A stretch of 64,000 nucleotides of DNA from Candidatus Poribacteria bacterium (GCA_965214095.1 OZ243938.1:1568001-1632000); one strand, 5' to 3'; shown: positions 13,119 through 43,386, numbered from the stretch's first letter. Made by a program: numbers and translations. The notes: generated from the letters alone by a model not told the origin.

Positions 13119-15179
13119 GTGCCAGACAAAACCACTTCAAACCTAATACTTAGACCACTTAACGACACAGATGTTACAACTTGGGAACTCCCCGAAGGTG
13201 CAATTACCCGATTGGGACGGGGTAGACTGGTGAATATATCATTTTCACCTGATGGGAAGTATCTTGCTGTAGCAACTCCTATCGGATGTTGGTTGTATGA
13301 CCTACCCACGCTTACCCCTCGCTCATTGATTGAAACGGAACGCGGAATGCTTACGAAAATTGCTTTTTCTCGTGATGGACGGTGGATTGCTACGGGCAAC
13401 GCGGATGGTATCGTTAAGGTATGGGACACAGATACCTCACAGTGTCTTGCCAAAATAGATTACCACAAGATAATGGGAGGACCGTTGGGTTATTGTGATT
13501 TGAACTTTTCGGAGGATGGCAAATATCTTGCTGTGTCCAGCTCCAGTGGGTGTGCTGTCTTCACTTGGCACACAAATACTGATGAACCCATAGCACAGTT
13601 CTCGATTGATGCAGCAGATACGAATGGAAAACGCGTTCCTATCTACTTATCTCCTAACAGGAATATGTTTGCATACGTATCTTCTGTGTCTCCCATGACT
13701 ACAATAATGATTAAAGATATTGACACCGGTGAACATATTACAGACTATAGTTGTCCAGCACTTTATGCATTCACAGGTCTTGTATTTTCACCGTGTGGTC
13801 AGTATCTTGCATCTGTACATCAGAACGGCAATGTGCAGGTGCGTAATATTGACAATGCCACATCGGAGATAGTACATACCTTATCAGATGCGACTTCTGT
13901 GAGACTTGCGTATACGTCTGTTGGTGCATTGCGTATTGCTGAAATTCATGAGGAAAAAGTTGTAATTTGGGATACGGAGCAGTTTCAGAAGGTAGGTACA
14001 TTGGAATTTGAGAGACACGGAAGGAAAATATTTCGATTTTCGGACGATGGAACACATTTCGTAATCGCTAATTCACGCGAATTCCAAGTATGGAGGGATG
14101 GCGGATTGATTAAAGTTGTGTCTATGTCTGCTGCACATATAGGTATTATTAGATGGGTACGTTTTTCTCAACAGAAAAAGACACTAATTAGTGGACACGG
14201 ACCAAGTAATATGTTCTGGTCTTTAGAGGATCACCAGTTACAACATATCTTCTATCCCAAAACAGAGGGTTACTTTTTGGGAAGAAGTAGCGTCTTATCA
14301 CCTTGTGAAGAATCTCTTGCTACCCCTATTTTAGGTATCCGCAATAGCAACGACATCGCTATTACAATTTGGCATATTACATCTGGCACCTTAATTGCTG
14401 AGATGACTGGACATGAAAGACATGTCGTCCAGATGGCGTATTCACCGTCTGGAGACTTTTTAGTTAGTGCATCGTCACTTGGTGAGCTCATTGTATGGGA
14501 CACGCAGTTTTGGGAAAAGCGTCACGAACTTATAGGACATACTAAAGATATTACGAGTGTCTTTTTTCACCCTGATGGGAAGCAGCTTGTCACCGCGTCC
14601 AATGACAGGACTGCACGAGTCTGGAATGTTGAGAATGGTGAACAGGTCGGTTCACTTCCTTTAGACACAATCATAAAAGATATATCCCTTTATAGAGGTG
14701 GATCCCAAGAAATCCAGGCGTTAATAAAATGGAAACAGCAATTGGAGTCTGAGCAGTCAACTGATCAAACCATTTGTTCTGATATCCGGTTTTCTCCGTG
14801 CGGTACACTCATCGCCGGTAGGTTATATCGGCGCGGTAAATGGAAGAAGAAAATGGCAAATGAGATTAGACTTTGGGATGCAGCAACCTTAGAAATACGA
14901 ATGACGATACTGCTCCCTGCAGATGATTCCCTTACACGTGCGCTTACATTTTCACCATGCAGCCGCTACCTTGCCTCTGGAACGTGGTGGAAAAAAGGTT
15001 TAGAGAAGATGCGAATAAGGTTATGGGAGGTTGCGAGTGGGGAAAATATTGCTACCTTCTGGGGACATCCAACAGATATTCATGACCTGGCATTTTCACC
15101 TGATGGTTCGCTTCTCGCAAGTGGTAGTTATGATGGGACTATCCTCTTGTGGGACATGAAACCTTTTATTAACTCTTAG
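13119..15179 (+). CDS. WD40 repeat protein, array copy 1
   Basis: GTG start after AGGAG; DVTTWELPEGAITRLGRG, multiple FSxxG...WD blades, terminal GH...FSPDG..LASGSYDGTILLWDMKPF. Confidence 0.92.
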   Translation: MPDKTTSNLILRPLNDTDVTTWELPEGAITRLGRGRLVNISFSPDGKYLAVATPIGCWLYDLPTLTPRSLIETERGMLTKIAFSRDGRWIATGNADGIVKVWDTDTSQCLAKIDYHKIMGGPLGYCDLNFSEDGKYLAVSSSSGCAVFTWHTNTDEPIAQFSIDAADTNGKRVPIYLSPNRNMFAYVSSVSPMTTIMIKDIDTGEHITDYSCPALYAFTGLVFSPCGQYLASVHQNGNVQVRNIDNATSEIVHTLSDATSVRLAYTSVGALRIAEIHEEKVVIWDTEQFQKVGTLEFERHGRKIFRFSDDGTHFVIANSREFQVWRDGGLIKVVSMSAAHIGIIRWVRFSQQKKTLISGHGPSNMFWSLEDHQLQHIFYPKTEGYFLGRSSVLSPCEESLATPILGIRNSNDIAITIWHITSGTLIAEMTGHERHVVQMAYSPSGDFLVSASSLGELIVWDTQFWEKRHELIGHTKDITSVFFHPDGKQLVTASNDRTARVWNVENGEQVGSLPLDTIIKDISLYRGGSQEIQALIKWKQQLESEQSTDQTICSDIRFSPCGTLIAGRLYRRGKWKKKMANEIRLWDAATLEIRMTILLPADDSLTRALTFSPCSRYLASGTWWKKGLEKMRIRLWEVASGENIATFWGHPTDIHDLAFSPDGSLLASGSYDGTILLWDMKPFINS

Positions 15180-15314
15180 ACATTCCTTATCAATTCATTT
15201 ATAGCATTGCGATACCTGTTGCATTACACAACTCTGTCAGTCAATTTTACATAATATATCAGAGCATGAAGTTACCGAGTCTTGCATCTCATATACCAAT
15301 AAAGGAGATAATTT

Positions 15315-17285
15315 TTGAAAAACAGAGAACCCATAACACCTTCAATTAGACCTATCCACGACACGGATGTAACAACATGGGAACTCCCCGAAGGGGCAAT
15401 TGCCCGGTTGGGGCGGGGTGGAATTATGGGTAATATCATTCACGCACCTGATGGAAAGCACTTTGTTGTTCCAAGTTCCATAGGAGTCTGGTGGTACAAT
15501 ATATCTACAATGACACCTAATGCACTAATGGACACAGACAGAGGATACATTACTGCTATCTCATTTTCTCCAAATGGTAAAAGGCTTGCAACAGGTGATG
15601 GAGACGGTCTGGTCAAAGTATGGGATGTACAGAATGGTGTCAACATCGCGCAGATGGATCGGGATGAAAATGAGAAACCCTACCATTGTGTTTCCCGATT
15701 CGCATTTTCATCTGATAGTCAGTTTATTGCAGCTTCCAGTTTCCGTGATTATATCCTATACATCTGGAACACTGAAACGGGCAAACAAATTGGCAAATTC
15801 CACGATAATACCAATTATAGGTGGTGGCCTACTCTGCTACGTCCTATTGCCTTCTCTCCGGATGGCAGTTTGATAGCGTGTACAATGCCTGATGAGGGTC
15901 TATTCGCACATGCAGATCGTCGTGGAACGATCCGTACTCCCAATCATTCTTCCAACTATATTTCTGTATGGAATATAAAAACAAGTGAACAAATAGCATG
16001 TATTACAGAACATCCTGATTTTGTTAATAGTATTGTCTTTTCTCCTTGTGGAAAGTTTCTTATCTCTGGAGGAAGAGATGGAACAGTGAGGGTGTGGTCA
16101 GTTGAAACTTGGAAGATGCTCCATTCATTTAATAATCTTGGAACAGAACGGAAACAACTCTTCTATTCACCTAAAAGTGAATTGTTTGCTAAAGAAGCCT
16201 CTAAGGATAATTTCACTGTATGGAATGTATATGAAGGTCAAAAAACCGACACATACCTTGAAGAACATCGAAATATTCAAATCCCATATTCCACAAAGGA
16301 AGCACCATTTATTGTAGCCGATGAGAACGAATTTAGAGTGTGGAAAGTCGGTGATACTCAACCACATACTTTTGTTCATTCACACATAGAATTCTCTGAT
16401 TCAGTAGTATTCACAGAGGATGGAAAAACACTCGCAGGGGCAATTCGAGAAAATGGTATTATGTTGTGGGATATGACTAAACCATCATTTCCGCTAACAC
16501 ATTTGAATATATCTGGTAACAAGAAAATTGTTTCTTCGTTTGGTTCAGAAAAGATTTCTGTTATGGGTATAGAGGGGAACGCAGCTAAAGTATGGGTGTC
16601 TGGAGAGAGTCAACCAAGACATATATTCACACTTCCTAACGGAAAAGAAGAAGCGACATCAGCAGCATTCGCACAGGTAGAGAACCTGTTAGTTTGCAGT
16701 GGAACACAAAATAAACTCTACATATGGAACACTCAAACGAAAGAAATATTACATACACTCACACCAGATTTATCGGATGAAGATTCCATAGCATATTTGG
16801 AATTTAGTCCAGATGCAAAACTACTTTTCAGTGTCTCGGGACGGGGTCCCAGAACCTATCTATGGCAAGTTGAAACAGGAGAGATAATTGATACTTTCAC
16901 CTATAATACCAGAGTCATTACTTTTTCCCCATGTAGTTCAATAATAGCTTGTGCAGTACCCCCAGGAATTATATTATGGGATGTAAATCGTTCTGAAACC
17001 GTCATCGCAATGCCTGAGAAGGAAGAAGATTTTCTTGTAGCATTGTCATTTTCTCCATGCGGAAGATATTTAGTTTCCGGTTCAAATTGGCAGCAACGTA
17101 TGAATATAAAGAAAGTGGCTATTCGGTTATGGGAGGTTGCAAGTGGCAAAAACATTGCCACTTTTAGAGGACACCCAACTGATATTCAGTCATTGGCTTT
17201 CTCCCCAGATGGTAAACTGTTAGCCAGCGCAAGTTTTGATGGTACCATCCTCCTCTGGGATATGAAACCCTTTATTAACTCTTAG
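15315..17285 (+). CDS. WD40 repeat protein, array copy 2
   Basis: Same conserved termini; AAGGAG RBS, TTG start. Confidence 0.92.
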   Translation: MKNREPITPSIRPIHDTDVTTWELPEGAIARLGRGGIMGNIIHAPDGKHFVVPSSIGVWWYNISTMTPNALMDTDRGYITAISFSPNGKRLATGDGDGLVKVWDVQNGVNIAQMDRDENEKPYHCVSRFAFSSDSQFIAASSFRDYILYIWNTETGKQIGKFHDNTNYRWWPTLLRPIAFSPDGSLIACTMPDEGLFAHADRRGTIRTPNHSSNYISVWNIKTSEQIACITEHPDFVNSIVFSPCGKFLISGGRDGTVRVWSVETWKMLHSFNNLGTERKQLFYSPKSELFAKEASKDNFTVWNVYEGQKTDTYLEEHRNIQIPYSTKEAPFIVADENEFRVWKVGDTQPHTFVHSHIEFSDSVVFTEDGKTLAGAIRENGIMLWDMTKPSFPLTHLNISGNKKIVSSFGSEKISVMGIEGNAAKVWVSGESQPRHIFTLPNGKEEATSAAFAQVENLLVCSGTQNKLYIWNTQTKEILHTLTPDLSDEDSIAYLEFSPDAKLLFSVSGRGPRTYLWQVETGEIIDTFTYNTRVITFSPCSSIIACAVPPGIILWDVNRSETVIAMPEKEEDFLVALSFSPCGRYLVSGSNWQQRMNIKKVAIRLWEVASGKNIATFRGHPTDIQSLAFSPDGKLLASASFDGTILLWDMKPFINS

Positions 17286-17423
17286 ACATTCCTTATCAAT
17301 TCATTTATAGCATAGCATAACAATACCGGTTGGATTACACAACTCTATCAGTCAATTTCACATTACATATCGTAGTGCGAAGTTACCGAACCTCGCAAGC
17401 CATAAAACAATAAAGGAGAATTG

Positions 17424-19418
17424 ATGGAAACCACAAAAACACAAACAACCACCCCTTTTCACTTTGATGATAGCAAAGTATGTAATTGGACACTTCCCGA
17501 AGGTGCAATCGCTCGATTAGGACGTGGAAGTGTACGTGATATGGAATTTTCACCGGATGGACAGTACTTCGCTGTTGGAACAACAATAGGACTTTGGATG
17601 TATCAACTTTCAACACTTTCCCCAATCACGCTCTGGGAAACTGATAGAGGATATATTGAAAGTGTTACATTCTCACCTGATGGTCGATGGATTGCTTCAA
17701 CTACACTTAACGAAGCACTCAGGGTGTGGGATATCCAGAACAAGAGTTGTATTACTGAGATGGAATTTAAGGAGAAACATACCAATTTCGGAATTGACAA
17801 ACCTGTTTTTTCCGCAGATGGAGACTGTCTTGTTGCATTTAATGTGAACAACAAGGTTTATTTTTTGTGTCCTCGCACCGGTACGAAAATGAGAGAAACA
17901 GAAATCAAAGTAAATGGAACAGAAAACGAAACAATTGATGGGATCTATCCCACTTGTTTTTCTCCGGATATCAGTTTGTTGGCAGGTGCGTGTTGCGATC
18001 ATAGAAACCGTACCGTTGAATTCATTGCACTGTGGGATGTGGAGACAGGTGAACAAGTCACTCGTCTTGAATGGACTGAAAGATGGGGTAACCTCTGTTT
18101 TTCACCGTGTGGAAGGTTTCTTGCTGCCGGCAGTTCAGAGGGTAAAATTCATGTGTGGGATGTGGAAAGTGGAAGTCTGATTGCAAGCTATTCTGACTAT
18201 GGAGATGCACGGATGACACCACATTATCCCTCGGAAGGTGGATTGATTGCAACTATGGTTTTTCCATCTGAACCCAAAATTGAAGTCTGGGATTTAGAAA
18301 GAAACGAAAAAATGGCGACGTTCGAAAAAGGGAGCAAACATAGTTTTGTCCGTTTTTCGAAAGATGACACAAAATTTGCATATACTGATGATGGGGAAAT
18401 CAAATTCTGGACAAAAGAAAAACCCATCTCGAAATTACTGCCGAGTATTAAAGGACATACACGTCCAGTCAGTTCATTAGTCTATGCAACAGATGAGAAA
18501 ACGCTTGTGGCTACGTACTGGGGGTGGAAAGCACTTTTTTGGGATGTTCCACGCAGACGAGGACAACGTCCAACTGGAACAGATTTACCCACAAGTAAAA
18601 CACTTCATCTCTATCAGGACAATGAGGGGAAAGTATATGCAACGGGTGGAGACAGTGCCTACCTAAGAGTGTGGAAGAATGGCAATAGTGAATCAATCAC
18701 CGATATTCCAATACATGAGCAAAAACTGCAATCAATCACAGGTAGTGAGGCGTTCGCATTAACAGCAGACCGGATAGCGCGGGCAGATAGAGATCATAAC
18801 ATCTATGTATGGATGTGTAAATCGAAATCAAATAGTAGTGATAATAAAAAGGACTGGATATTGCAAGTAAATCTGACCGGACATACAGAATACATTGAAG
18901 CTTTGGCATTTAGTCCTGACGCAAAACAACTCGTGAGTATATCGCGAGATAAAACTGCCAGATTATGGGATGTTGAATCAGGAGAACAGATCATACAACT
19001 ACCTTTAACCCCGCCTTCAAGTCCCAGACGATACCGAAGTTATGACAGAGGTATTACATTTTCACCTCGTGGAGACTTAATTGCAGGTGGACAGTGGGGA
19101 GAGATAGTGCTGTGGAATGCGACAGATGGAAAAATCTATAGGACAATTCCACAACCAGAAGGAAATCAGCGACCGATTACATTATGTTTTTCACCATGTG
19201 GGGAGTATCTCCTTTCCGGTTCATGGTGGCAAGGTGGTTTGCAGAAAGTGCCTATCCGTTTGTGGAAAGTAGCGACAGGTGAGAATATTGCCACGTTTTC
19301 TGGACACACTACAGACGTTCAGTGTTTTGCATTTAATCAGGATTGCACTGTTCTCGCCAGCGGTGGATATGATGGGGTAATATTCCTCTGGGATTTGAAA
19401 CCGTATATCAATTCATAA
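17424..19418 (+). CDS. WD40 repeat protein, array copy 3
   Basis: WTLPEGAIARLGRG...GHTTDVQCFAF; close paralogue of copy 4. Confidence 0.92.
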   Translation: METTKTQTTTPFHFDDSKVCNWTLPEGAIARLGRGSVRDMEFSPDGQYFAVGTTIGLWMYQLSTLSPITLWETDRGYIESVTFSPDGRWIASTTLNEALRVWDIQNKSCITEMEFKEKHTNFGIDKPVFSADGDCLVAFNVNNKVYFLCPRTGTKMRETEIKVNGTENETIDGIYPTCFSPDISLLAGACCDHRNRTVEFIALWDVETGEQVTRLEWTERWGNLCFSPCGRFLAAGSSEGKIHVWDVESGSLIASYSDYGDARMTPHYPSEGGLIATMVFPSEPKIEVWDLERNEKMATFEKGSKHSFVRFSKDDTKFAYTDDGEIKFWTKEKPISKLLPSIKGHTRPVSSLVYATDEKTLVATYWGWKALFWDVPRRRGQRPTGTDLPTSKTLHLYQDNEGKVYATGGDSAYLRVWKNGNSESITDIPIHEQKLQSITGSEAFALTADRIARADRDHNIYVWMCKSKSNSSDNKKDWILQVNLTGHTEYIEALAFSPDAKQLVSISRDKTARLWDVESGEQIIQLPLTPPSSPRRYRSYDRGITFSPRGDLIAGGQWGEIVLWNATDGKIYRTIPQPEGNQRPITLCFSPCGEYLLSGSWWQGGLQKVPIRLWKVATGENIATFSGHTTDVQCFAFNQDCTVLASGGYDGVIFLWDLKPYINS

Positions 19419-19512: not shown

Positions 19513-21522
19513 ATGAAAAATGAAACCACATCAACCCCAGTACTTAGACCACATGATGACACAGATGTAACAACATGGGAACTGCCCGAAGGGGCAATTG
19601 CTCGATTGGGACGGGGTGGTCTGAGGGATATGGCATTTTCACCAGATGGACATCATTTTGCAGTCGGAACGAACATAGGACTCTGGATATACGAACTTTC
19701 CACGCTGTCCCCGATCGCGCTGTGGGAAACGGATAGGGGATATATTGATAGTGTTACATTTTCACCAGATGCTCAATGGCTTGCCGCATATACATATCAG
19801 CAAGCACTCAGAGTATGGGACATCCAAAATCAAGTGTGTGTTGCAGAGATGGAGTTGCCGAAAGGACGAAAAGGGCAGATTCGTTTGTCTAATATGAAAC
19901 CGATCTTTTCTCAAGATGGAGAAGAACTCTTCGCTTTCAATTATTTCATCGGGAGGGTTTATATCTGGTGTCCACGAACTGGCGCGTTAAAAAATGAAAT
20001 AGAGATAAAATTAAGTGATACTGACATCAAATCCATAAATGCCATCTATCCAAGCTACTTTTCTCCAGATTTGAGTTTGTTGGCAGGCACTTGTTACGAT
20101 CATAGTGACCGTACCGCTGAATTCATTGCAGTGTGGCAGGTAGAAACGGGAGAACAAATCGCTCGTCTTGATTGGACTGAAAGGTGGGGTCGTCATTGCT
20201 TTTCGCCGTGTGGACGATTTTTTGCTACCACTGGCTCAGAAGGAAGATTACATGTGTGGAACGTGGAGACTGGAAACCTTGAGGAAACCTATACCGATCA
20301 CGAGGATACTCAAATACATCCATATTATACACCGGAAGGTGAATTAATAGCCGCGGTAGTCTTTCCATCTCAGCCTAAACTTGAAGTCTGGAATTTAAAA
20401 AAAGGTGAAAAAATTGACACATGTGAACATCAGAGTCAGGGAAGTTCTGTTCGTTTTTCGACGAGTGGTACACAATTCGCCTACACTGATAGAGGTGAAA
20501 TCAAAATCTGGATAGAAGGTAGCCCCATCGCTCAAGCATGCCCGACTATTCAGGGGCACACTGGGACTGTCGGTTCATTAGTCTTCGCACCGGATAAAAA
20601 AACGTTAGTGACTGCCTACTGGGGTAGGAACACGGTTTTATGGGATGTTTCAAGTCAGTGTGCCCGATATCCAACCGAAAAAGAACTACCCAATAGTATA
20701 CGTGATGTTTACCCGACTTCAATCGGGACAATCTTTGCTGTTGGCGGAGACGAAAAAACATTAGAAGTATGTGAGTTTGGAAGCGGTGAATCCATCGCTG
20801 AAATTCCTATTCCTGAATCCGGGTTGTTATTGGGAACGGGGACCGATGCGTCAGCACTGACAGCTCAACGGTTGGCACGTGCTGGTAAAGATCGCAACAT
20901 CTATGTGTGGGAGTACACACCTTCATCTAATGAAATAAACGAAGGAGGAAACTGGGAAAAGTGTGCCGTCCTTATAGGACACGCAGAATATGTTAATGCG
21001 TTGGCATTGAGTCCCGATGGAAAGCGGCTCGCAAGTATCCCTATAGTGCGTCGTCCACAAAAACGAACCGCTCTATTATGGGATGTTGATGCTGAAGAAC
21101 AGATTACTCAGTTACCCCTAACTACACCGGAACGGGGAGGATATAACAGTTACCAGACGGGGATAACGTTTTCACCAGATGGTAACATAATCGCTGGTGG
21201 ATTTTGGAACGAGATTGTTTTGTGGGATGCAACAGATGGAAAAACGCTTATGACGATTCCTCAATCGGAAGAGAATCAGCGACCAATTACACTTCGTTTC
21301 ACGCCGTGCGGCCAATATTTGGTTGCGGGTGCTTGGTGGAAAGGTGGACTAAAAAAGACATCCATCTGTTTATGGGAAGTCGCAACAGGTAAGAGGATCA
21401 CCACGTTTAAGGGACATACCACTGATGTACAGTGCTTTGCATTTTCGCAGGACTGTACCGTTCTTGCAAGTGGTGGACATGATGGTGCGATTTACCTTTG
21501 GGATCTGAAACCTTATCTGTAG
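19513..21522 (+). CDS. WD40 repeat protein, array copy 4
   Basis: Same conserved termini; paralogue of copy 3. Confidence 0.92.
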   Translation: MKNETTSTPVLRPHDDTDVTTWELPEGAIARLGRGGLRDMAFSPDGHHFAVGTNIGLWIYELSTLSPIALWETDRGYIDSVTFSPDAQWLAAYTYQQALRVWDIQNQVCVAEMELPKGRKGQIRLSNMKPIFSQDGEELFAFNYFIGRVYIWCPRTGALKNEIEIKLSDTDIKSINAIYPSYFSPDLSLLAGTCYDHSDRTAEFIAVWQVETGEQIARLDWTERWGRHCFSPCGRFFATTGSEGRLHVWNVETGNLEETYTDHEDTQIHPYYTPEGELIAAVVFPSQPKLEVWNLKKGEKIDTCEHQSQGSSVRFSTSGTQFAYTDRGEIKIWIEGSPIAQACPTIQGHTGTVGSLVFAPDKKTLVTAYWGRNTVLWDVSSQCARYPTEKELPNSIRDVYPTSIGTIFAVGGDEKTLEVCEFGSGESIAEIPIPESGLLLGTGTDASALTAQRLARAGKDRNIYVWEYTPSSNEINEGGNWEKCAVLIGHAEYVNALALSPDGKRLASIPIVRRPQKRTALLWDVDAEEQITQLPLTTPERGGYNSYQTGITFSPDGNIIAGGFWNEIVLWDATDGKTLMTIPQSEENQRPITLRFTPCGQYLVAGAWWKGGLKKTSICLWEVATGKRITTFKGHTTDVQCFAFSQDCTVLASGGHDGAIYLWDLKPYL

Positions 21523-28007: not shown

Positions 28008-28083
28008 CATATATATGCATCAGATTGAACTAAAGTATTCTTTAGTGTCCAAACAAGCTGTAGCAATTGCTGAGGAGATTATT

Positions 28084-30075: not shown

Positions 30076-30395
30076 CGACTTGTGCTAAAAAACTAAATGT
30101 TAAGTATTGATTCACACATTCAGGTCCTTTTGTCCGTATTTCTTTCACTTAAGATGCTCTTTAGTCCCGTATGAAGATAAAAAACAAATAGGGTAATTTG
30201 ACTTCAAAGTCCAGCGCGCTTACAAAGCGCGCCTACGGGTTTGACAAGCGCGCAAGCAAAGCACGCCTACAGGTCTTGGGTTAATTAAGATTAACCGTTT
30301 AATAAATTAATCTTCATTAGGGACGATATGCTTATAGTGTTAATGCTATTAAATGTAAAAACCAACAAGACAGAATGTTAACTGGCACAAGTCGT
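30075..30395. mobile_element. MITE (IS982-like AC ends) with a nested second MITE and REP hairpins
   Basis: Perfect 11-bp TIR ACGACTTGTGC / GCACAAGTCGT; 6-bp duplication AAATTA at 30069-30074 and 30396-30401. Inner IR GTCCCGTATGAAGAT / ATCTTCATTAGGGAC spans 30164-30324. Confidence 0.8.
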
Positions 30396-30478
30396 AAATT
30401 AGCATATATGTGCATCAGATTGAACTAAAATATTCTTTAGTGTCCAAACAAGCCGTAGCAATTGCTGAGGAGATTATT

Positions 30479-32560: not shown

Positions 32561-32614
32561 TTTATGTGCGTCATGTTGATCTAAACAACTGTAGCAATCG
32601 CTGAGGAGATTATT

Positions 32615-36763: not shown

Positions 36764-36795
36764 AACAACTGATAAAAAATAACTTGGAGGTTTCC

Positions 36796-39000
36796 ATGGA
36801 TAATCAACGATCACAAACACCCACACAAATACCCCAAACAAACGCAGATATTACCACTTGGTCTCTCCCTGAGGGTGCAATTGCACGTTTAGGGCGCGGT
36901 CGTAACCGTGGTGGTCTAACATTTTCACCTGATGGTGATTCTCTTGTTGTTGCGACAGACATCGGGTGTTGGTTGTATGACCTTGATACGCTGACGCCGA
37001 GTGCGTTATGGGCAACAGAACGGGGGATGGTTTCTGCCATCTCCTTTTCTCATAATGGGAAGTGGATTGCTACCACCAACTGGGACGGCATCGTGAAGAT
37101 ATGGGACACACAAACCTTACGCTGCATTTCCCAAATAGAACCACCTTGGCATCCTAATACATATGTAGATTTTTCATCAGATGGGCAGCACTTAGCTCTG
37201 GTTGGTAGTACACAAACTTCTGCATGGACAGCTGTTTACGACTGGCACTTGAACACAACTACGCCTATCATAAACTTAGATTTTACGCTGAAACCACAGG
37301 TATACTCTGCAGTCTCAACAGCTTTTTCCATTAATGGTAATTTATTTGCGTATACGTCCGACTACAATATGACATCTGTGATGCACATGGAGACAGGGGA
37401 GATCATAGCGAAATTTACTGACACATATACCGATGACACATATACCAAAGGTCCTATTTTAGGGACCACCAACTTAGTTTTTTCACCTTGTGGAGAGTTC
37501 CTTGCGGGTTGTAATAAAAAGGACACGGTTCATGTATGGAATATCCAAAGCGGGAACTTTACGATGGAACCGACAACTTATCATCAGAGCACTCGGGTAC
37601 TGCCGACCTACCTATCTGATGGCACATTACGGGTTGCTGCGCGTCATCCAAAAGAAATAATCATCTGGGATACGAAGTCGCAGGAGAAGGTGGACTCCAT
37701 TGCATATTCGGGAGGGATCTTCTGGGCAACGTGCTTTTCAGTTGATGGTAGAAAGTTCGCAATCGCCAGTAGATACGATGATCTTAAGCTCTGGTGTGAA
37801 GGTTGTTCCTCAAAAGTCGTATCTCTGACTGAACATCTACATCCGGACCCTGTCCAAAGGTTCCCGAGCACACTGGATTTTTCTAAGGACAGTCGGACAC
37901 TTTTCTGTGGATACTGGAAACACATCGGACACCTTGCTTGGGATGTTTCGAAGCACCAAATAGCACGGACATTTCCGTCACATTCACATGAATATTCGGC
38001 ACATCCCGATATGCCTTTCACGATGTCACACAATGCGGAACTGATAGCTACTGCAAACGGCATGGACAGCCCCATTAAAGTTTGGGATATAGCGTCAAAT
38101 ACGCAAGTTGCAGAGTTCCTCGAATCTTCATGGCAAGTGTGCTGGCTGACTTTTTCTTCAACAGCAGAATATCTTCTGAGTAGCATGAATAGAGACGCAG
38201 CCAAGGTTTGGGATGTAGAATCTGGCACGCAAGTCGCAGAACTTACTGAGAAGGATAACTTAATGGAGAAAGGGTTCAAGATGAAAATGTTTTCTCCGAC
38301 AGATGAATATATACTCGGTATCAGTAAGGATCGTATCAGCGTGTGGGATGCCTTGAAGTGGGAACATCTTTATGAAACTCACCTCAAGGGTTTTAACAGG
38401 TCAAGGAGAGAGGGAGTATTTAAGTTTGGGACACCGTTGAGGTTTCATCCAGACGGTCAGCATTTCATCACTGCTGGATACGAAAAGGATGCTTTTGTCT
38501 GGGACCTCAAATGCGGTGAACAAGTGGGTTCACTTCACACAGAAAAATGTTTAGATACAACCCTCTATAGAGGTGAGCCACAAGATATCCAGCGTCTCCG
38601 CGAACAACAGAATGCGGACTCTCGACGTATCCGTGGAATTGAAACATCCCCCTGCGGCACTTTTATTGCTGGCGCAATGCATAACGAAATTAGGGTATGG
38701 GACGCTGCTACCTTACAAACCCAAATAGCAATCATACCATCCATTGGCTGTCAGAAGTCTTATATAATAGTGTTTTCACCTTGCAGCAAGTATCTGGCAA
38801 CAGGTGCGTGGTGGCAAGAGGGACAAACAAAAATGTCTATCAGGTTGTGGAATATCATTACAGGTGATAATATTGCCACTTTTTGGGCACACACGACTGA
38901 TGTTGATAAACTTGCGTTTTCACCGGATGGCAAATATCTCGCAAGCGGTAGTTATGATGGTACTATCCTCGTCTGGGATATGAAACCATTTATAAATTAG
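36796..39000 (+). CDS. WD40 repeat protein, array copy 12
   Basis: GGAGG RBS before ATG 36796; core related to copy 13. Confidence 0.92.
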   Translation: MDNQRSQTPTQIPQTNADITTWSLPEGAIARLGRGRNRGGLTFSPDGDSLVVATDIGCWLYDLDTLTPSALWATERGMVSAISFSHNGKWIATTNWDGIVKIWDTQTLRCISQIEPPWHPNTYVDFSSDGQHLALVGSTQTSAWTAVYDWHLNTTTPIINLDFTLKPQVYSAVSTAFSINGNLFAYTSDYNMTSVMHMETGEIIAKFTDTYTDDTYTKGPILGTTNLVFSPCGEFLAGCNKKDTVHVWNIQSGNFTMEPTTYHQSTRVLPTYLSDGTLRVAARHPKEIIIWDTKSQEKVDSIAYSGGIFWATCFSVDGRKFAIASRYDDLKLWCEGCSSKVVSLTEHLHPDPVQRFPSTLDFSKDSRTLFCGYWKHIGHLAWDVSKHQIARTFPSHSHEYSAHPDMPFTMSHNAELIATANGMDSPIKVWDIASNTQVAEFLESSWQVCWLTFSSTAEYLLSSMNRDAAKVWDVESGTQVAELTEKDNLMEKGFKMKMFSPTDEYILGISKDRISVWDALKWEHLYETHLKGFNRSRREGVFKFGTPLRFHPDGQHFITAGYEKDAFVWDLKCGEQVGSLHTEKCLDTTLYRGEPQDIQRLREQQNADSRRIRGIETSPCGTFIAGAMHNEIRVWDAATLQTQIAIIPSIGCQKSYIIVFSPCSKYLATGAWWQEGQTKMSIRLWNIITGDNIATFWAHTTDVDKLAFSPDGKYLASGSYDGTILVWDMKPFIN

Positions 39001-39057
39001 TTTATATGTGCGTCATGTTGATACAAACAAGCAGTAGCAATTGTTGAGGAGATTATT

Positions 39058-41244
39058 ATGCAACATAAACAAACCTATAATACGAATCAAATAAAATCTG
39101 ATAATACAGATGTAACAACTTGGCACCTTCCCGATGGAGCAATTGCACGGTTAGGACGAGGTCGTATCCGTGGGGGTCTAACATTTTCACCTGATGGTAA
39201 TTCTCTTGTTGTTGCGACAGACATCGGGTGTTGGTTGTATGACCTTGAAACATTAACACCACGGGCATTGTGGAATACAGAACGAGGGATGGTTTCTGCC
39301 ATCTCCTTTTCTCATAATGGGAAGTGGATTGCTATCGGAAATATGCACGGCACCGTGAAGGTATGTGACACACAAACCTTACAATCCATTGCAATAATAG
39401 AAACGAACCGACTTGTTACACGTATTAATATTTCTCCGAGTGGACAGCACTTGGCAATTGCTACAGTAGCTGGTGGCGTTCAAACTACTATTTATGCTTG
39501 TCGTCCTCATATCAGTACACCGATTGCAAACTTTGCTTTAACGCAAGAACAACGGGTAAAATGTACAACATCAATAGCATTTTCGCCTAATGGCTGCCTA
39601 TTTGCTTACACGTCTGACATCAATAAAACATCTGTGATATATGTAGAGACAGGAGAAATCATCGCGGAACTTCACGATACGTATACCACGTATACCGAAG
39701 AACCTGGTGGATGTACGAAATTGGTTTTTTCACCGTGTGGTAAGTTCCTTGCGGGGTGTAATAAGAAGGACACGGTTCATGTCTGGGATATCCAAAGCGG
39801 TAACTTCGCAATAGAACCGACAACCTATCATCAGAGCACTCGCGTGCTGCCGACTTATCTATCTGATGGTACCCTAAAGGTTGCAGCGTGTTATCGCAAA
39901 GAGGTAATATTCTGGGATACAAAGTTACAACAGAAGATGGATGCTTTTGAATATATAGGGAGCGAAGGTGGGGCAACGTGCTTTTCAGTTGATGGTAGAA
40001 AGTTCGCAATTGCCAGTAAATACGACGATCTTAAGGTCTGGTGTGAAGGTTCTCCCTCAAAAGTCGTATCTTTACCTGAACATCTACATCCCGACCCTGT
40101 GCAAAGGTTCCCGAATATACTGGATTTTTCTAAAGACAGTCGGACGCTTTTCTGTGGATATTGGAAACACACCGGGTACCTCGCTTGGGATGTTTCGAAG
40201 CACCAAATAGCACGGACATTTCCGTCACATTCACGCGGATATTCGGCACATCCCGAAATGCCTTTCACGATGTCACACAATGCGGAACTGATAGCTACAG
40301 CAAACGGAACGGACAGTCCCATTAGTGTTTGGAATGTAGTCTCAAACACGCAAGTGGCAGAGTTCCTCAAATCTTCACGGCAAGTGTGCTGGCTAACGTT
40401 ATCTCCAAAAGGAGAATATCTTGTGGGTAGCATGAAGGGAGACGCAGCCAAGGTATGGGATGTAGAATCTGGCACGCAAATCACAGAACTTACAGAGAAG
40501 GATACTTCGTTGACGAAAGGAGTCAGAATGAAGATGTTTTCCCCGACAGGTGAATATATACTCGGTATCGGTAAGGATCGTATCAGCGTGTGGGATGCCT
40601 TGAAGTGGGAACATCTTTATGAAACTCGCCTCAAAGAGTTTAACCGGTCCAGGAGAGACGGAGTGTTTAAGCTTGGGACACCGTTGAGGTTTCATCCAGA
40701 CGGTCAGCATTTCTTCACTGCTGGATACGAAGTGGGTGCTTATGTGTGGGAACTCAAAAACGGTGAACAAGTGGGGACACTACCCACAGAAATATGCATA
40801 GATACAACCCTATATAGAGGAGATCCACAGAACATCCAGCTGGTCCGTAAACAGCAGGAAACGACCCGTCGCGTCCGACAACTTGAGGTATCTCTTTGCG
40901 GTACTATTATTGCTGGCGCAATGCAAAACGAAATTAGGGTATGGGATGCAGCCACACTACAAACAAAAATGGTGATAATACCTCCGAAAGGATGTCAAAA
41001 ACCTTTCACCTTAGCCTTTTCACCGTGTAGTCAATATCTTGCTGCTGGCGTATGGTGGCAACACGGACAAATAAGAATGTCTATCCGGGTATGGAATATC
41101 ACTACTGGTGAAAATATTACTACCTTCTGGGCACATCCTACCGATATCGATAGACTTAGGTTTTCACCGGATGGCAAATATCTCGCAAGTGGCAGTTATG
41201 ATGGCACCATCCTGCTCTGGGATATGAAACCATTTATAAATTAG
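39058..41244 (+). CDS. WD40 repeat protein, array copy 13
   Basis: Class-B N-terminus; core related to copy 12. Confidence 0.92.
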   Translation: MQHKQTYNTNQIKSDNTDVTTWHLPDGAIARLGRGRIRGGLTFSPDGNSLVVATDIGCWLYDLETLTPRALWNTERGMVSAISFSHNGKWIAIGNMHGTVKVCDTQTLQSIAIIETNRLVTRINISPSGQHLAIATVAGGVQTTIYACRPHISTPIANFALTQEQRVKCTTSIAFSPNGCLFAYTSDINKTSVIYVETGEIIAELHDTYTTYTEEPGGCTKLVFSPCGKFLAGCNKKDTVHVWDIQSGNFAIEPTTYHQSTRVLPTYLSDGTLKVAACYRKEVIFWDTKLQQKMDAFEYIGSEGGATCFSVDGRKFAIASKYDDLKVWCEGSPSKVVSLPEHLHPDPVQRFPNILDFSKDSRTLFCGYWKHTGYLAWDVSKHQIARTFPSHSRGYSAHPEMPFTMSHNAELIATANGTDSPISVWNVVSNTQVAEFLKSSRQVCWLTLSPKGEYLVGSMKGDAAKVWDVESGTQITELTEKDTSLTKGVRMKMFSPTGEYILGIGKDRISVWDALKWEHLYETRLKEFNRSRRDGVFKLGTPLRFHPDGQHFFTAGYEVGAYVWELKNGEQVGTLPTEICIDTTLYRGDPQNIQLVRKQQETTRRVRQLEVSLCGTIIAGAMQNEIRVWDAATLQTKMVIIPPKGCQKPFTLAFSPCSQYLAAGVWWQHGQIRMSIRVWNITTGENITTFWAHPTDIDRLRFSPDGKYLASGSYDGTILLWDMKPFIN

Positions 41245-41301
41245 TTTATATGTGTGTCATGTTGAGCTAAACAAACTGCAGCAATTGCTGAGGAGATTAT
41301 T

Positions 41302-43386
41302 ATGCATCATATTCAAACCTATAATACGAATCAAATGAAATCTGATAATACAGATGTAACAACATGGGAACTACCTGAAGGTGCAATCGACAGATTAGCA
41401 AGGGGACGGGTGTCGGATATGTCATTTTCAACTGATGGTAAGTATCTTGCCGTCGCAACGCCGATCGGTTGTTGGTTGTATGATAGATTGTCGCTGAAAA
41501 CGATCGCGTTATTTGATACAGAAAGTGGAATGCTTAATACCATTGCCTTTTCACCCGACACCCAGTTCATTGCTACCAGTAATAAAGATGGTGTTTTAAA
41601 GGTATGGGATACACAAACGCTAAAGTGTCTTGCAAAGATAAACCATCGCAAGAATGTAGATGCAGCTTCAGGATATTTTTCGAAGCTCTGCTTTTCTCAA
41701 GATAACCAATACTTAGCCGCATCCTGTTTTGATAAACAAAATGTTGTCTACGCATGGCAACAAAACACTGATAAACCTATGATCTGTTTACCGATTGATG
41801 TAGAAGAAACGAAGGGACACAGCTTTCCCATCTGTTTCTCACCTAATGGGTATCTACTCGCGTATGTGTCTTCTGTATCTCTCCAGAACACTGTAACGAT
41901 TTCCGATATTGAAACCGGTGAACACATCACACATCTTAGCCAATCCTCGGCACTGTCTACATACCGTTTTTCCCCTTGCGGACAATATATAGCAGCTGCT
42001 AATCGGAACAATGAAGTGTTGGTATGGAATGTTCACAACGGCACTTTGGAAACGGAACCAACAGCGTATGATGGAAAGTGGTTAAGCATTGCCTATACAC
42101 CTTATGGCATACTACGCGTTGCCGATATTTACGACTATAAAGTTGTGATTTGGGATGCTATCTCAAAAGAAAAAATAGATACCTTTGAACGCGATAAACC
42201 CAGGTCTGATCATTTTTTAAGCGGACATCATTTACACTTTTCATCCGGTGGCGCACACATCGCAACGATCCTCTCGCGCAGTAAGCTCTGTGTGTGGACG
42301 GTCGGGGCACCATCAAGTAAAGTTTCAAGTCCTGCTGATCATAAACCTGTTGTCCACGCGGTTGCTTTTTCTAAAGACGGAAAGACATTAGCAAGTAGAT
42401 ATGCGTGGGGTATGTATCACGTATTCTGGGATGCTACACAGCGACAAACAGAACAAATATTCCCAACGCCAAATATCCAAGCACAACGCACAGCTCTAAC
42501 TAAAGACCTAACAGAAGAAGAGAAAAAGCAGTGGTACCGTGTCAGTGCCTTGTCACCTTGTAGGGAACGACTGGCACTTCGCGACCTTCCGAGAGGGTCA
42601 GTTGAAATTTGGGATATTGCGTCTGAAACCCTTATTACAGAACTCTCGGACAGTAAGAAATTTAGATCTTGGCGTGAAATGCGTTTTTCACCGACAGGTG
42701 AACGTTTTATCGATACAGCACCGACAGGTGATATTGATGTCTGGGATACACAGTCTGGTGAGAAAGTCAATACACTCGCAGGAGATAACCGACTGATTTT
42801 GACAACTGCGTTTCACCCTGATGGTAAACAACTCGCTGCTGCACCAAAAGGGAGTGCTGGAATGCTTTGGGATATTGACAGCGGTGAACAACTCGGAGTG
42901 TTCCCTACAGAACTGCCAGAAGATACCTCCCTCTATAGAGGCGATCCAGAGCAGATACACCAATATATTCAAAAATATAAAAAAATAATCAAGCAATATA
43001 AGTGTATCCCTTACAAACTCGCCTTCTCTCCTTGTGGCACGATGATCGCCTGTGGGATACAAGATCATATCCGGTTGCGAAATACAGCAACCTTAGAAAC
43101 GCACATGCTTATACTACCACCCGAAACGTGTAGCAGACCGTTTGCACTCACATTTTCCCCCTGCGGAAAATACCTCGTCTCTGGGTCGTGGTGGATAAAG
43201 GGGTTGGACAAAGTATCCATAAGAATATGGGAAGTCGCAACGGGTCAAAATATACACACATTCTGGGGACATACAACAGATGTGCAGGATTTAGCATTTT
43301 CACCGGATGGCAAATATCTCGCAAGTAGCAGTTATGATGGCACCATACTCCTCTGGGATATGAAACCTTTTACCGGTTCAGATTGA
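41302..43386 (+). CDS. WD40 repeat protein, array copy 14
   Basis: Class-B N-terminus; core related to copies 9 and 11. Confidence 0.92.
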   Translation: MHHIQTYNTNQMKSDNTDVTTWELPEGAIDRLARGRVSDMSFSTDGKYLAVATPIGCWLYDRLSLKTIALFDTESGMLNTIAFSPDTQFIATSNKDGVLKVWDTQTLKCLAKINHRKNVDAASGYFSKLCFSQDNQYLAASCFDKQNVVYAWQQNTDKPMICLPIDVEETKGHSFPICFSPNGYLLAYVSSVSLQNTVTISDIETGEHITHLSQSSALSTYRFSPCGQYIAAANRNNEVLVWNVHNGTLETEPTAYDGKWLSIAYTPYGILRVADIYDYKVVIWDAISKEKIDTFERDKPRSDHFLSGHHLHFSSGGAHIATILSRSKLCVWTVGAPSSKVSSPADHKPVVHAVAFSKDGKTLASRYAWGMYHVFWDATQRQTEQIFPTPNIQAQRTALTKDLTEEEKKQWYRVSALSPCRERLALRDLPRGSVEIWDIASETLITELSDSKKFRSWREMRFSPTGERFIDTAPTGDIDVWDTQSGEKVNTLAGDNRLILTTAFHPDGKQLAAAPKGSAGMLWDIDSGEQLGVFPTELPEDTSLYRGDPEQIHQYIQKYKKIIKQYKCIPYKLAFSPCGTMIACGIQDHIRLRNTATLETHMLILPPETCSRPFALTFSPCGKYLVSGSWWIKGLDKVSIRIWEVATGQNIHTFWGHTTDVQDLAFSPDGKYLASSSYDGTILLWDMKPFTGSD

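What the first reader, a model, noticed from the sequence alone, without database searches (positions are those of the whole stretch)
15060..41420. Cassette-like architecture: conserved junction modules assort independently of gene cores
Seen: each junction (last blade, spacer, RBS, N-terminal leader up to DVTTWxLPxGAIARL) falls into classes. Class A leaders (P..RP..D.DVTTW) occur on copies 1, 2, 4, 5, 6, 7 and 11. Class B (spacer ..AGCAAT(T/C)G(C/T)TGAGGAGATTATTATG; leader M.H.Q.YNTNQ.KSDN) occurs on copies 8, 9, 10, 13 and 14. Core families cut across the classes: 5(A)/10(B), 11(A)/9,14(B), 12(other)/13(B). Inference: crossovers in the conserved terminal blades swap whole cores, giving recombinase-free cassette shuffling and expansion.
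Basis: partly seen in the sequence, partly recalled or inferred. Interest (0 to 1): 0.75.

Follow-up and report, generated by a model that had tools for sequence, protein, structure and literature searches.

The report
Recombining WD40 gene array in Poribacteria
Fourteen neighbouring copies of a WD40 propeller gene in a sponge-symbiont (Poribacteria) genome swap short end-and-start pieces by ordinary homologous recombination, which is a clear example of a well-known process, not a new kind of system.

Summary
Window 13119-43386 holds 14 tandem, same-strand WD40 double-propeller genes. They lie downstream of a 16S rRNA gene, a tRNA and an ECF sigma factor, in a Candidatus Poribacteria genome. 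Every copy starts exactly 17 codons before DVTTW. Junction and core trees conflict strongly (AU p 2.4e-9; 1.7e-5).

- The conserved terminal blades are kept by protein-level selection: synonymous sites are saturated (pS 0.63-0.70).
- What has actually moved is a 189-218 nt class B module: the last 28 codons of the upstream gene, the spacer, the RBS and the 17-codon leader. It is 84-94% identical at five junctions whose flanks sit at background identity.
- Copies 9, 11 and 14 are mosaics, with a 497-nt tract of 489 identical bases between c9 and c11.
- The closest relative lacks the c2 unit and carries a hybrid j2/j3 spacer there.
- Array content and order differ between species.

The mechanism is interlocus gene conversion and unequal crossover on evolutionary time. 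I found no silent cassettes, no site-specific recombinase and no evidence of programmed switching. It is a new member of a known kind, of moderate interest.

The parts
12371..12991 (+). ECF sigma factor gene immediately upstream of the array
   Evidence: Pfam Sigma70_r2, Sigma70_ECF and r4_2. NCBIfam TIGR02937 at 94.4 bits. Orthologues (84-94% aa) sit directly upstream of family arrays in L007, L011, L017, L028 and L029.
13119..15179 (+). c1, WD40 double propeller, leader class A, GTG start
   Evidence: Nearest relatives are 67% identical (L002, L028).
15180..15314 (+). spacer j2 (type A1), similar to j3
   Evidence: the first ~55 nt after the stop are nearly identical to j3, and the rest is ~80-85% identical. 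Its 5' half matches the hybrid spacer of L011.
15315..17285 (+). c2, leader class A, TTG start; this unit is absent at the syntenic place in the closest relative
17286..17423 (+). spacer j3 (type A1)
   Evidence: its 3' half matches the hybrid spacer of L011.
17424..19418 (+). c3, leader METTKTQTTTPFHFDDS/KVCNW, a leader type shared with other species
   Evidence: It is 91% aa identical to L011_5825.
19513..21522 (+). c4, leader A, core family with c3 (58%)
21541..23550 (+). c5, leader A, core family with c10 (62%)
23646..25838 (+). c6, leader A, TTG start
   Evidence: 95% aa identical to L032_8107, pS 0.032.
25971..28007 (+). c7, leader A
   Evidence: Its orthogroup has 30 rows, all with class A leaders.
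27924..28134 (+). class B junction module j8 (c7 tail 84 nt + 76-nt spacer, long form + RBS + 17-codon leader of c8)
   Evidence: 211 nt, 84-91% identical to the other B modules.
28084..30075 (+). c8, leader B
   Evidence: It has no close relative among the fetched loci (best 45%).
30075..30394 (.). ~320-nt MITE-like insertion that splits junction j9
   Evidence: 11-nt terminal inverted repeats ACGACTTGTGC/GCACAAGTCGT, flanked by AAATTA on both sides. This explains the 403-nt spacer.
30395..30529 (+). class B junction module j9, distal part (spacer, long form + RBS + leader of c9); the c8 tail 29992-30074 is its proximal part
   Evidence: 218 nt without the insert. By my count on the alignment its spacer differs from the B spacer of L011 at 2 of 83 positions.
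30479..32560 (+). c9, leader B, core family 9/11/14
32051..32547 (+). recent conversion tract shared by c9 and c11 (c11 36251-36747)
   Evidence: 489 of 497 nt identical, ungapped. The neighbouring stretch 31836-32007 is only 58-72% identical.
32477..32665 (+). class B junction module j10 (short form)
   Evidence: 189 nt, 94.2% identical to j14.
32615..34600 (+). c10, leader B on a core whose relatives carry Q-type or A-type leaders
34700..36763 (+). c11, leader A, TTG start, mosaic core of family 9/11/14
36796..39000 (+). c12, leader of the Q type (MDNQRSQTPTQIPQTNA), core family with c13 (72%)
38917..39108 (+). class B junction module j13 (short form)
39058..41244 (+). c13, leader B
41161..41352 (+). 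class B junction module j14 (short form)
41302..43386 (+). c14, leader B; its orthologue in L041 (93% aa) has an unrelated leader
   Evidence: homology to the orthologue begins at the codon before DVTTW.
46139..48169 (+). divergent 15th WD40 gene that closes the locus
   Evidence: Pfam WD40. Orthologues follow arrays in L005, L011, L013 and L018.

Best explanation
WHAT IT IS. The region is a tandem array of 14 old paralogues of a Poribacteria-specific WD40 double-propeller protein. It is placed behind a conserved ECF sigma factor gene.

SHOWN.
- Each core lineage has orthologues in other Poribacteria, so the cores are old.
- Their first and last blades stay alike because the protein is constrained, not because the DNA is exchanged.
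- On top of this, general homologous recombination between the paralogues has acted in three ways.
  1. Interlocus gene conversion copied one short junction tract, class B, to five junctions. The tract is the last 28 codons of the upstream gene, a 54-76 nt spacer, the RBS and a 17-codon disordered leader, 189-218 nt in all. It replaced older A- or Q-type leaders on unrelated cores.
  2. Conversion tracts inside the genes made c9, c11 and c14 mosaics of each other.
  3. Unequal crossover inside similar junctions added or removed whole gene units, so array length and order differ between species.

INFERRED.
- Tract ends fall at the few DNA stretches alike in all copies (FSPDG and WDMKP near the 3' end, ACA GAT GTA ACA ACT TGG at the 5' end). 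These serve as the homology anchors.
- The result is that translation-start and leader modules and cores are reassorted slowly, over evolutionary time.
- I take the proteins to be a diversifying set of interaction modules under the sigma factor. That part is inference only.
For: ORGANISM AND FAMILY. 49 of the 52 fetched loci are titled Poribacteria. 508 stretches in genome contigs encode a relative.

FOLD. AlphaFold2 on 109 sequences gives pLDDT 90.2 and pTM 0.89, with residues 1-16 below 50. The best PDB matches are tandem seven-blade WD40 proteins: 2ymu, 1nr0, 4nsx.

OLD CORES. On a 117-row core tree the window's copies fall into orthogroups shared across species. The nearest relatives of c3, c6, c7, c10 and c14 are 83-95% identical.

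SELECTION VERSUS EXCHANGE. Terminal blades have pS 0.63-0.70 with pN 0.20-0.27. Class B leaders have pS 0.00-0.13 between genes with core pS 0.68-0.79.

MODULE LIMITS. Identity among B pairs is 87% in the upstream gene's last 84 nt, 88% in the spacer and 92% in the leader. The flanks are at background, 69 against 68 and 76 against 74. Whole modules are 84.4-94.2% identical in 10 of 10 pairs. j10, j13 and j14 share a ~19-nt deletion that j8, j9, L011 and L018 lack.

POLARITY. The nearest relatives of c9, c10, c13 and c14 carry A, Q or other leaders. Homology between c14 and its 93% orthologue starts at the codon before DVTTW.

INCONGRUENCE. AU tests.

MOSAICS. The triplet 9/11/14 has 441 informative sites in 157 runs, against 272.5 +/- 9.7 when permuted (p <= 1e-4). 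A 489/497 identical tract links c9 and c11. By segment, c11 is nearest to different relatives.

UNIT GAIN OR LOSS. In the syntenic locus of the closest relative the order is sigma, a ~100-codon gene remnant, an A1 spacer, then c3. The spacer matches j2 in its 5' part and j3 in its 3' part.

SAME PROCESS ELSEWHERE. In L002 (a complete chromosome) and L005, junctions of ~250-300 nt are nearly identical in front of cores only 44-49% identical.

ORDER. It varies between species.
Against: - The 12/13 clade is not rejected on junction data (p 0.17). The junction alignment joins leader classes that may not be homologous, and the tool warned of long branches meeting.
- Across species, leaders of different-core genes in the same genome are not on average more alike than between genomes (30.5% against 28.8%; permutation p 0.20). 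Homogenisation is therefore episodic, not pervasive.
- Conversion (non-reciprocal) cannot be told from double crossover with one genome.
- The direction of the c2 event (gain here or loss in the relative) is open.
- The window and most loci are metagenome assemblies, and repeats of this kind are prone to misassembly. I could not check reads.
- No promoter, terminator or RNA signal was found that would give the junction a function.
- The sigma-factor link rests on gene order alone.
Confidence: 0.8

Rival explanations
1. Programmed cassette switching. The array would be a variation system, like antigenic-variation loci, in which cores are moved at high frequency between junctions so that the expressed protein changes within a population.
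For: - Conserved ends bracket variable cores.
- Recombination tracts end at the conserved boundaries.
- pN/pS of array genes against close orthologues is 0.27-0.75, against 0.19-0.23 for flanking genes.
- The host is a sponge symbiont, where eukaryote-like repeat proteins are thought to act on the host (PMC3909097, passages read).
Against: - All 14 copies are full-length with their own RBS and start, so there are no silent cassettes and no single expression site.
- Pfam scans of 24 + 21 ORFs of the window found no tyrosine or serine recombinase. There is only an IS4/IS5-type transposase 17.5 kb downstream.
- B modules differ by 6-16%.
- Leader class is kept in 3 of 3 orthologous pairs with the closest relative.
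Confidence: 0.07
2. Assembly artefact. The mosaic would come from chimeric or collapsed assembly of similar paralogues, or of co-existing strains, in a metagenome.
For: - The window looks like a metagenome-derived genome.
- The 489/497 tract and the uneven divergence to the relative (pS 0.032 for c6 against 0.14-0.25 for flanking genes) are the kinds of pattern strain mixing can give.
Against: - All 14 ORFs are intact and keep the 17-codon leader.
- B modules are similar but not identical, and show a nested pattern (long and short forms) that needs real history.
- The same kind of junction identity is seen in independent assemblies, including a complete chromosome.
- The MITE-like insertion with a target duplication sits cleanly in one junction.
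Confidence: 0.05
3. Serial tandem duplication without conversion. One B-type junction would have been duplicated together with its neighbouring genes, and the cores then diverged fast under positive selection while the junction stayed.
For: - Tandem arrays do grow by duplication.
- pN/pS is raised.
Against: - Core synonymous sites are saturated between B-bearing genes (pS 0.68-0.79). Positive selection does not explain this.
- B-bearing cores have closer relatives with non-B leaders in other species.
- Class B needs 7 changes for 7 rows on the cross-species core tree.
Confidence: 0.04
4. Selection or convergence only. Leader classes would be functional signals kept or reached independently, with no DNA exchange.
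For: - Leader length is fixed at 17 codons in 14 of 14 copies.
- The same leader types recur across species.
Against: - The non-coding spacer and the synonymous sites are shared too.
- Three junctions share a deletion.
- B spacers diverge between species roughly as neutral sites do. By my count on the alignment there are 2 differences in 83 nt to L011, where flanking genes have pS 0.14-0.25.
Confidence: 0.02

Closest known systems
Interlocus gene conversion and unequal crossover (concerted evolution) in tandem gene families
   Same: Same-orientation paralogues, segment-wise conflicting trees, tracts with near-zero synonymous divergence inside old genes, clustered informative sites, and copy-number change at repeated junctions.
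   Different: The most visible tract is confined to the gene-to-gene junction (upstream tail, spacer, RBS, leader). It therefore reassorts start and leader modules instead of homogenising the coding cores. The cores stay far apart (31-49% aa).
Bacterial paralogue families with conserved ends and a variable middle that recombine (Helicobacter babA/babB, Anaplasma msp2/p44, Borrelia vls, Neisseria pilE/pilS). Recalled, not from any call.
   Same: Conserved 5' and 3' ends serve as homology for exchange of the variable middle.
   Different: Those systems have an expression site and silent or partial donors, and switch within a population. Here all copies are complete genes and no switching is shown.
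Eukaryote-like WD40 repeat proteins of sponge symbionts (Kamke et al. 2014, PMC3909097; passages read)
   Same: The same phylum and the same domain. That paper reports WD40 domains as highly abundant in poribacterial single-cell genomes.
   Different: The passages I read do not describe this sigma-linked tandem array, its leader classes or recombination between copies. I did not open the supplementary tables.
ECF sigma factors associated with WD40 domains in Planctomycetes (PMC8567305; passages read)
   Same: An ECF sigma factor and WD40 propellers go together.
   Different: [quoted passage not shown] Here the sigma factor (206 aa) and the propellers are separate genes, and there are 14-15 propeller genes.
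WD40 repeats of fungal NOD-like receptors that evolve by recombination between repeats (PMC4986451 and PMC13449251 seen only in the listing; the content is recalled)
   Same: WD40 propellers diversify by homologous exchange.
   Different: There the exchange is between repeats within and between genes. Here it is between whole-gene junctions of an array.

Membership tests
WD40 beta-propeller proteins | WD40 repeat profile matches above the curated threshold | tested here: met
   PF00400 scores 112-170 bits against a cut-off of 27 in the 4 of 14 array copies scanned (c1, c3, c10, c13), and 226 bits in the 15th gene.
WD40 beta-propeller proteins | Propeller fold, here two seven-blade rings | tested here: met
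   AF2 model of c10: pLDDT 90.2, pTM 0.89, about 58 strands. Foldseek finds at least 500 PDB matches with E <= 0.001. The top ones are tandem propellers 2ymu_A (E 1.7e-38), 1nr0 and 4nsx, with TM 0.46-0.68. The blade count is inferred from the strand count and the matches. It was not counted on coordinates.
Tandem family evolving by gene conversion / unequal crossover | Different segments of the same genes give significantly different trees | tested here: met
   p-AU 2.4e-9, 1.7e-5, 1.9e-4 and 0.023. One of the four core clades is not rejected (p 0.17).
Tandem family evolving by gene conversion / unequal crossover | Tracts whose silent-site divergence is far below that of the flanking sequence | tested here: met
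   B leaders have pS 0.00-0.13 against core pS 0.68-0.79. The spacer is 88% identical against a 66% background. A 489/497 tract links c9 and c11.
Tandem family evolving by gene conversion / unequal crossover | Clustered informative sites (mosaic) among three or more copies | tested here: met
   157 runs against 272.5 +/- 9.7, p <= 1e-4.
Tandem family evolving by gene conversion / unequal crossover | Non-reciprocal transfer (donor unchanged) | not testable with these tools
   This needs parental and derived arrays, or population data.
Programmed cassette / antigenic-variation loci | One expression site plus silent, truncated or promoterless donor cassettes | tested here: not met
   14 of 14 copies have an RBS, a start codon, a 17-codon leader and a full ORF of 656-734 aa.
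Programmed cassette / antigenic-variation loci | High-frequency switching within a population | not testable with these tools
   No reads or strain series were available. Genome contigs holds one genome per species.
Site-specific recombinase systems (integron cassettes, shufflons) | Recombinase gene next to the array | tested here: not met
   There is no integrase, invertase or resolvase family among the 45 ORFs of the window scanned with Pfam. The only hit of that sort is a DDE transposase at 60894-61810.
Site-specific recombinase systems (integron cassettes, shufflons) | Short specific recombination sites at every junction | tested here: inconclusive
   Junctions fall into several unrelated sequence classes, which speaks against one common site. 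I ran no dedicated search for attC-like sites.
ECF sigma factor fused to WD40 (Planctomycetes type) | Sigma and WD40 domains in one protein | tested here: not met
   The sigma gene is 206 aa with only sigma domains, and the propeller genes have no sigma domain. Adjacency is conserved in 5 other loci.

The most novel reading that the evidence does not exclude
The sigma-linked WD40 array would be a Poribacteria-wide repertoire of diversifying interaction proteins, acting on the host or on phage. In it the 17-residue disordered leader with its spacer would be a separable targeting or expression signal. Class B would be a newer signal now being spread by biased conversion or selection, so that old binding cores are re-routed to a new fate. 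Class B has an ATG start in 5 of 5 copies and a polar N/Q/S/T-rich peptide, and it was seen on seven different core lineages in three genomes.
Probability: 0.2. Interest if true: 0.65.

Novelty: new member of a known kind. Interest (0 to 1): 0.4.

Why it matters
- It gives a clean, well-bounded bacterial example of recombination reassorting translation-start and leader modules among old paralogues, with the protein cores left diverged.
- It defines a so far undescribed, phylum-wide gene family and locus in Poribacteria: 16S rRNA, tRNA, ECF sigma, then a variable WD40 array. Poribacteria are dominant, uncultured sponge symbionts whose repeat proteins are suspected to act on the host.
- Practically, such arrays are a trap for short-read assembly and for orthology calls. 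Leader-based or end-based typing of these genes would mislead.
- If the leaders prove to be sorting or expression signals, the locus becomes a natural experiment in rewiring them.

Tried and rejected
- Sigma-70 promoter and intrinsic terminator scans over 12000-48500 gave counts at chance: 47 against 43.9 and 32 against 40.3 promoters, 14 against 14.2 and 17 against 14.2 terminators. None marked the junctions.
- Rfam at gathering thresholds found nothing in the array, only the 16S rRNA gene and a tRNA upstream.
- A visible stem-loop (GCGAGG TTACCGGA CCTCGC) in A-type spacers got 0 consensus pairs from RNAalifold. The named helix is paired in 83% of cells, but its covariation is no better than shuffles (92-377 of 500 reach the observed values). 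The 19 spacers used were picked by a loop motif (5 from the window, 14 from loci), so the set is biased.
- The idea that class B gives a less folded initiation region is not supported. Mean MFE is -8.7 (B) against -7.0 (A) for -30..+51, and -2.7 for both for -20..+20. The only differences are leader GC (0.25 against 0.41) and start codons (B: ATG 5 of 5; A: ATG 3, TTG 3, GTG 1).
- I tested whether same-genome leaders on different cores are more alike than between genomes. The mean is not significant (p 0.20). The share of pairs at least 75% identical is 8.1% against 2.9%, or 6.0% against 3.3% without the window (102 of 117 rows used).
- Codon identity at conserved residues near the boundary motifs is only modestly above the gene-wide mean of 0.48. 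AT-biased two-fold codons can explain it, so I make no claim from it.
- A protein search with residues 1-40 of c10, meant to count class B leaders elsewhere, returned only 6 candidates and 4 hits, all with Q- or A-type leaders. The word index is too coarse, so this says little about how common B is.
- My first self-BLAST settings merged hits and were uninformative. One script crashed on parsing and one seed search failed; the tract was then found.
- NCBIfam and the protein atlas gave no solid name for the two unknown genes after c14.
- Not checked:
  - Metagenome contigs and viral contigs, which are closed;
  - strains of one species;
  - the 428 of 508 family hits that were not kept;
  - sequence beyond 10 kb flanks;
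  - supplements of the papers.

Full report
WHAT IS THERE. The window carries 14 head-to-tail ORFs of 656-734 aa on the + strand between 13.1 and 43.4 kb, and a more distant 15th at 46139-48169. The four array copies I scanned, and the 15th gene, are WD40 proteins by Pfam. An AlphaFold2 model of c10, built on 109 family sequences, has pLDDT 90.2 and pTM 0.89. It is all-beta with about 58 strands. Its best PDB matches are tandem seven-blade propellers (2ymu, 1nr0, 4nsx). I gave that alignment 14 window copies and 95 of the 103 locus proteins, leaving out 8 near-duplicate or truncated rows.

Upstream lie a polysaccharide deacetylase gene, a 16S rRNA gene (10390-11940), a tRNA (12061-12134) and an ECF sigma factor gene (12371-12991). 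Downstream lie two paralogous genes of no known family, then the 15th WD40 gene.

GENE STARTS. The longest ORFs overstate several genes. In 14 of 14 copies, the in-frame start codon that has GGAG within the 16 nt before it lies exactly 17 codons before the D of DVTTW. Start codons are ATG 10, TTG 3 and GTG 1. Spacers are 135, 138, 94, 18, 95, 132, 76, 403, 54, 99, 32, 57 and 57 nt.

On a tree of the cores (leader, DVTTW and the C-terminal tail removed), the leader label needs 6 changes, which is what random labels need (5.9). Forcing class B into one clade costs 938 lnL units (p-AU 2.4e-9). On the junction DNA (up to 100 nt of spacer plus the 51-nt leader), class B is one clade. The core clades 9/11/14, 5/10 and 3/4 are rejected (p 1.7e-5, 1.9e-4, 0.023). 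The clade 12/13 is not rejected (p 0.17). The junction alignment does mix leader types that may not be homologous, and the tool flagged long branches.

WHAT IS SELECTION AND WHAT IS EXCHANGE.
- The conserved first blades (alignment columns 17-105) and the last ~75 codons have saturated silent sites over all pairs (mean pS 0.63 and 0.70) with low pN (0.27 and 0.20). The cores have pS 0.72 and pN 0.45. The blades are therefore alike because the protein is constrained.
- In contrast, class B leaders have pS 0.00-0.13 between genes whose cores are saturated (8/9, 8/13, 10/13, 13/14). The non-coding spacer is shared as well. This is recent common ancestry of the DNA.

Segment by segment, B junction pairs are 87% identical in the last 84 nt of the upstream gene, 88% in the spacer and 92% in the leader. 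They drop to background on both sides: 69 against 68% further upstream, and 76 against 74% after DVTTW. Whole modules of 189-218 nt are 84.4-94.2% identical in all 10 pairs.

There are two forms. j8 and j9 have a longer spacer. j10, j13 and j14 share a ~19-nt deletion.

WHERE IT COMES FROM. A scan of one genome per species found 508 stretches encoding relatives. The best 80 gave 52 loci, of which 49 are titled Poribacteria. I picked family genes in the loci with a regular expression: 105 hits, 2 false ones dropped, 103 kept. One search shows that this missed some members, so the tallies below are partial.

Leaders fall into recurring types across species:
- A: 61 of 117 rows.
- A Q-rich type: 22 rows, including c12.
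- c3's type: 8 rows.
- B: 7 rows.
- Others: 19 rows.

Besides the window's five copies, B occurs once in L011 and once in L018, on yet other cores.

On the 117-row core tree the window's copies sit in orthogroups shared by many species. The leader label is clustered, but it changes 31 times (minimum 4; shuffled 51.1; as low in 0 of 200 shuffles). The 7 B rows need 7 changes.

The nearest relatives of the B-bearing copies carry other leaders: c10 83-84% (Q), c14 93% (other), c9 79% (A), c13 65% (other). Four database proteins close to c10 also carry Q or A leaders. c14 and its 93% orthologue are alike throughout (pS 0.13), but homology stops at the codon before DVTTW. So B was pasted onto pre-existing cores.

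The B spacer of L011 differs from j9 at 2 of 83 positions, by my count on the alignment. Flanking genes of the two genomes have pS 0.14-0.25. The module therefore diverges about as neutral DNA does, and its copies in the window are roughly as old as these species splits.

OTHER RECOMBINATION.
- Within family 9/11/14, the 441 sites where two copies agree against the third form 157 runs, against 272.5 +/- 9.7 after permutation (p <= 1e-4).
- c9 and c11 share an ungapped 497-nt tract with 489 identities (32051-32547 and 36251-36747), next to a stretch of 58-72% identity.
- By segment, c11 is closest to different foreign relatives.
- The j2 and j3 spacers are nearly identical for ~55 nt after the stop, although c1, c2 and c3 are 33-35% identical.

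COMPARISON OF ARRAYS. The locus is conserved: deacetylase, ECF sigma, the array, then (where the fetched DNA reaches them) the unknown pair and/or the 15th WD40 gene. The content is not conserved.

The closest relative (L011; sigma 94% aa) has sigma, a ~100-codon remnant of a family gene, an A1 spacer, c3, a B-led gene of another lineage, c7, and the 15th gene. Its c5-c6-c7 block lies elsewhere in that chromosome (L032). The remnant and its spacer match the c1 tail and the 5' part of j2 best (38/40 and 35/40 in 40-column windows). They then match the 3' part of j3 best (35/40, 32/39). This is what a crossover between the two A1 junctions leaves when the c2 unit is lost or gained.

Other species show other orders, for example:
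- L007: 3-6-9-x-1-13-10-x-7-11.
- L029: 1-10-9-x-6-7.
- L002: 4-5-1-9-1-7-x-6.

Some adjacencies recur: 9 then 1, and 7 last. In L002 and L005, junction tracts of ~250-300 nt are almost identical in front of cores 44-49% identical. The process is therefore not peculiar to the window.

It is episodic, though. Leader class is the same in the 3 orthologous pairs with the closest relative. Averaged over all genomes, same-genome leaders on different cores are not significantly more alike (p 0.20).

MECHANISM. I conclude that general homologous recombination between paralogues explains the pattern. Gene conversion accounts for the short tracts, and unequal crossover accounts for unit gain and loss. 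Tract ends fall at the DNA motifs common to all copies.
- Shown: the incongruence, the silent-site contrast, the module limits, the mosaics, the hybrid spacer, and the variable order.
- Inferred: non-reciprocity, the direction of single events, the role of the boundary motifs as anchors, and any function.

I found no site-specific recombinase (45 ORFs scanned) and no silent cassettes. I found no promoter, terminator, Rfam family or supported RNA structure in the junctions. The B module does not fold less around the start. What it does bring is an ATG start (5 of 5) and an AT-rich, polar leader. The leader is predicted to be disordered.

FUNCTION. This is open. pN/pS against close orthologues is 0.27-0.75 for array genes and 0.19-0.23 for two flanking genes, which fits relaxed or diversifying selection. 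WD40 proteins are reported as abundant in Poribacteria and discussed as possible host-interaction or intracellular interaction proteins (PMC3909097, passages). Planctomycetes have ECF sigma factors with WD40 domains (PMC8567305, passages). My working reading is a sigma-controlled repertoire of binding modules. It rests on gene order and analogy only.

NOVELTY. Searches for Poribacteria with WD40, Poribacteria with gene conversion, WD40 with ECF sigma and Planctomycetes, and two broader term sets found no description of this array or its junction mosaic. I read passages of two papers and otherwise saw only listings. The process itself is textbook concerted evolution. The bacterial conserved-end, variable-core families I compare it with (bab, msp2, vls, pilS) are recalled, not taken from a call. 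I therefore rate it a new member of a known kind, of moderate interest. The bolder reading, that leaders are exchangeable sorting or expression signals and B is sweeping, is not excluded.

CAVEATS.
- The window and most loci are metagenome assemblies and no reads could be checked.
- Only one genome per species was available, with +/-10 kb flanks, and only 80 of 508 hits were kept.

Noticed in passing
window 10390-11940 and 12061-12134: A full-length bacterial 16S rRNA gene (1543 bits) and a tRNA lie directly upstream of the ECF sigma gene and the array. There is no 23S match in the 64 kb, so the rRNA genes look unlinked here.
   Followed up: partly
window 30075-30394: A ~320-nt MITE-like insertion with 11-nt terminal inverted repeats and AAATTA on both flanks sits exactly at the c8 stop inside a class B junction. 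It turns the usual TAG stop into TAA. The repeat end also occurs in L029 (1 match) and L035 (3 matches). Inside it is a 28-nt direct repeat with a GC-rich core.
   Followed up: partly
window 43460-44737 and 44817-46139: Two paralogous genes after c14 have no Pfam or NCBIfam match. The protein atlas gives only weak leads to sigma-70 region 2 (scores 0.84-0.86, below the level to trust). Orthologues follow arrays in L026 and L028.
   Followed up: partly
window c6 23646-25838 against L032; c3 and c7 against L011/L032: Silent divergence to the same relative genome is very uneven: c6 pS 0.032, c3 0.117, c7 0.225, sigma 0.136, deacetylase 0.253. This suggests recent exchange between lineages, or mixed orthology.
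   Followed up: no
L011 5320-5775: The closest relative keeps only the last ~100 codons of a family gene right after the sigma gene. This is a deletion scar. Its 5' piece looks c7-like and its 3' piece c1-like.
   Followed up: partly
L032 5935-7990 and L011 12054-14075: In the relative, the c5 orthologue and the 15th WD40 gene each appear as two ORFs. These are possible frameshifts or pseudogenes. My pN for the 15th gene (0.315) is spoiled by this and should be ignored.
   Followed up: no
L041 about 9400-9900: A small cysteine-rich ORF lies between the c10-like and c14-like genes, where the window has c11. The c14 orthologue there has a short, unrelated leader.
   Followed up: no
window spacers j2, j3, j4 and many loci, ~25-45 nt before the start: A sequence able to form an 8-bp stem-loop (GCGCGAGG TTACCGGA CCTCGCGC in its best form) recurs in A-type spacers. 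It is paired in 83% of cells, but covariation does not support it.
   Followed up: yes
window 28064-28073 and the other class B spacers: A 10-nt palindrome, AGCAATTGCT, lies just before the RBS of class B junctions. It is perfect in j8, j9 and j14 and one base off in j10, j13, L011 and L018.
   Followed up: no
window 3-2567: An open-ended ORF has the Type ISP restriction-modification C-terminal specificity domain (E 1.6e-89) and an N6 methylase domain.
   Followed up: no
window 60894-61322 and 61364-61810: An IS4/IS5-family transposase lies in two consecutive ORFs (DUF4096, then DDE_Tnp_1), 17.5 kb downstream of the array.
   Followed up: no
loci L007, L028, L029, L013, L026 and others: Arrays in other species hold a further family lineage, with a best hit to c6 at only 42-50%. 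It is absent from the window and my leader pattern missed it.
   Followed up: no
L020 and L021: Two loci with nearly identical genes carry different phylum labels, Poribacteria and Binatia. This is probably a binning error in one record.
   Followed up: no
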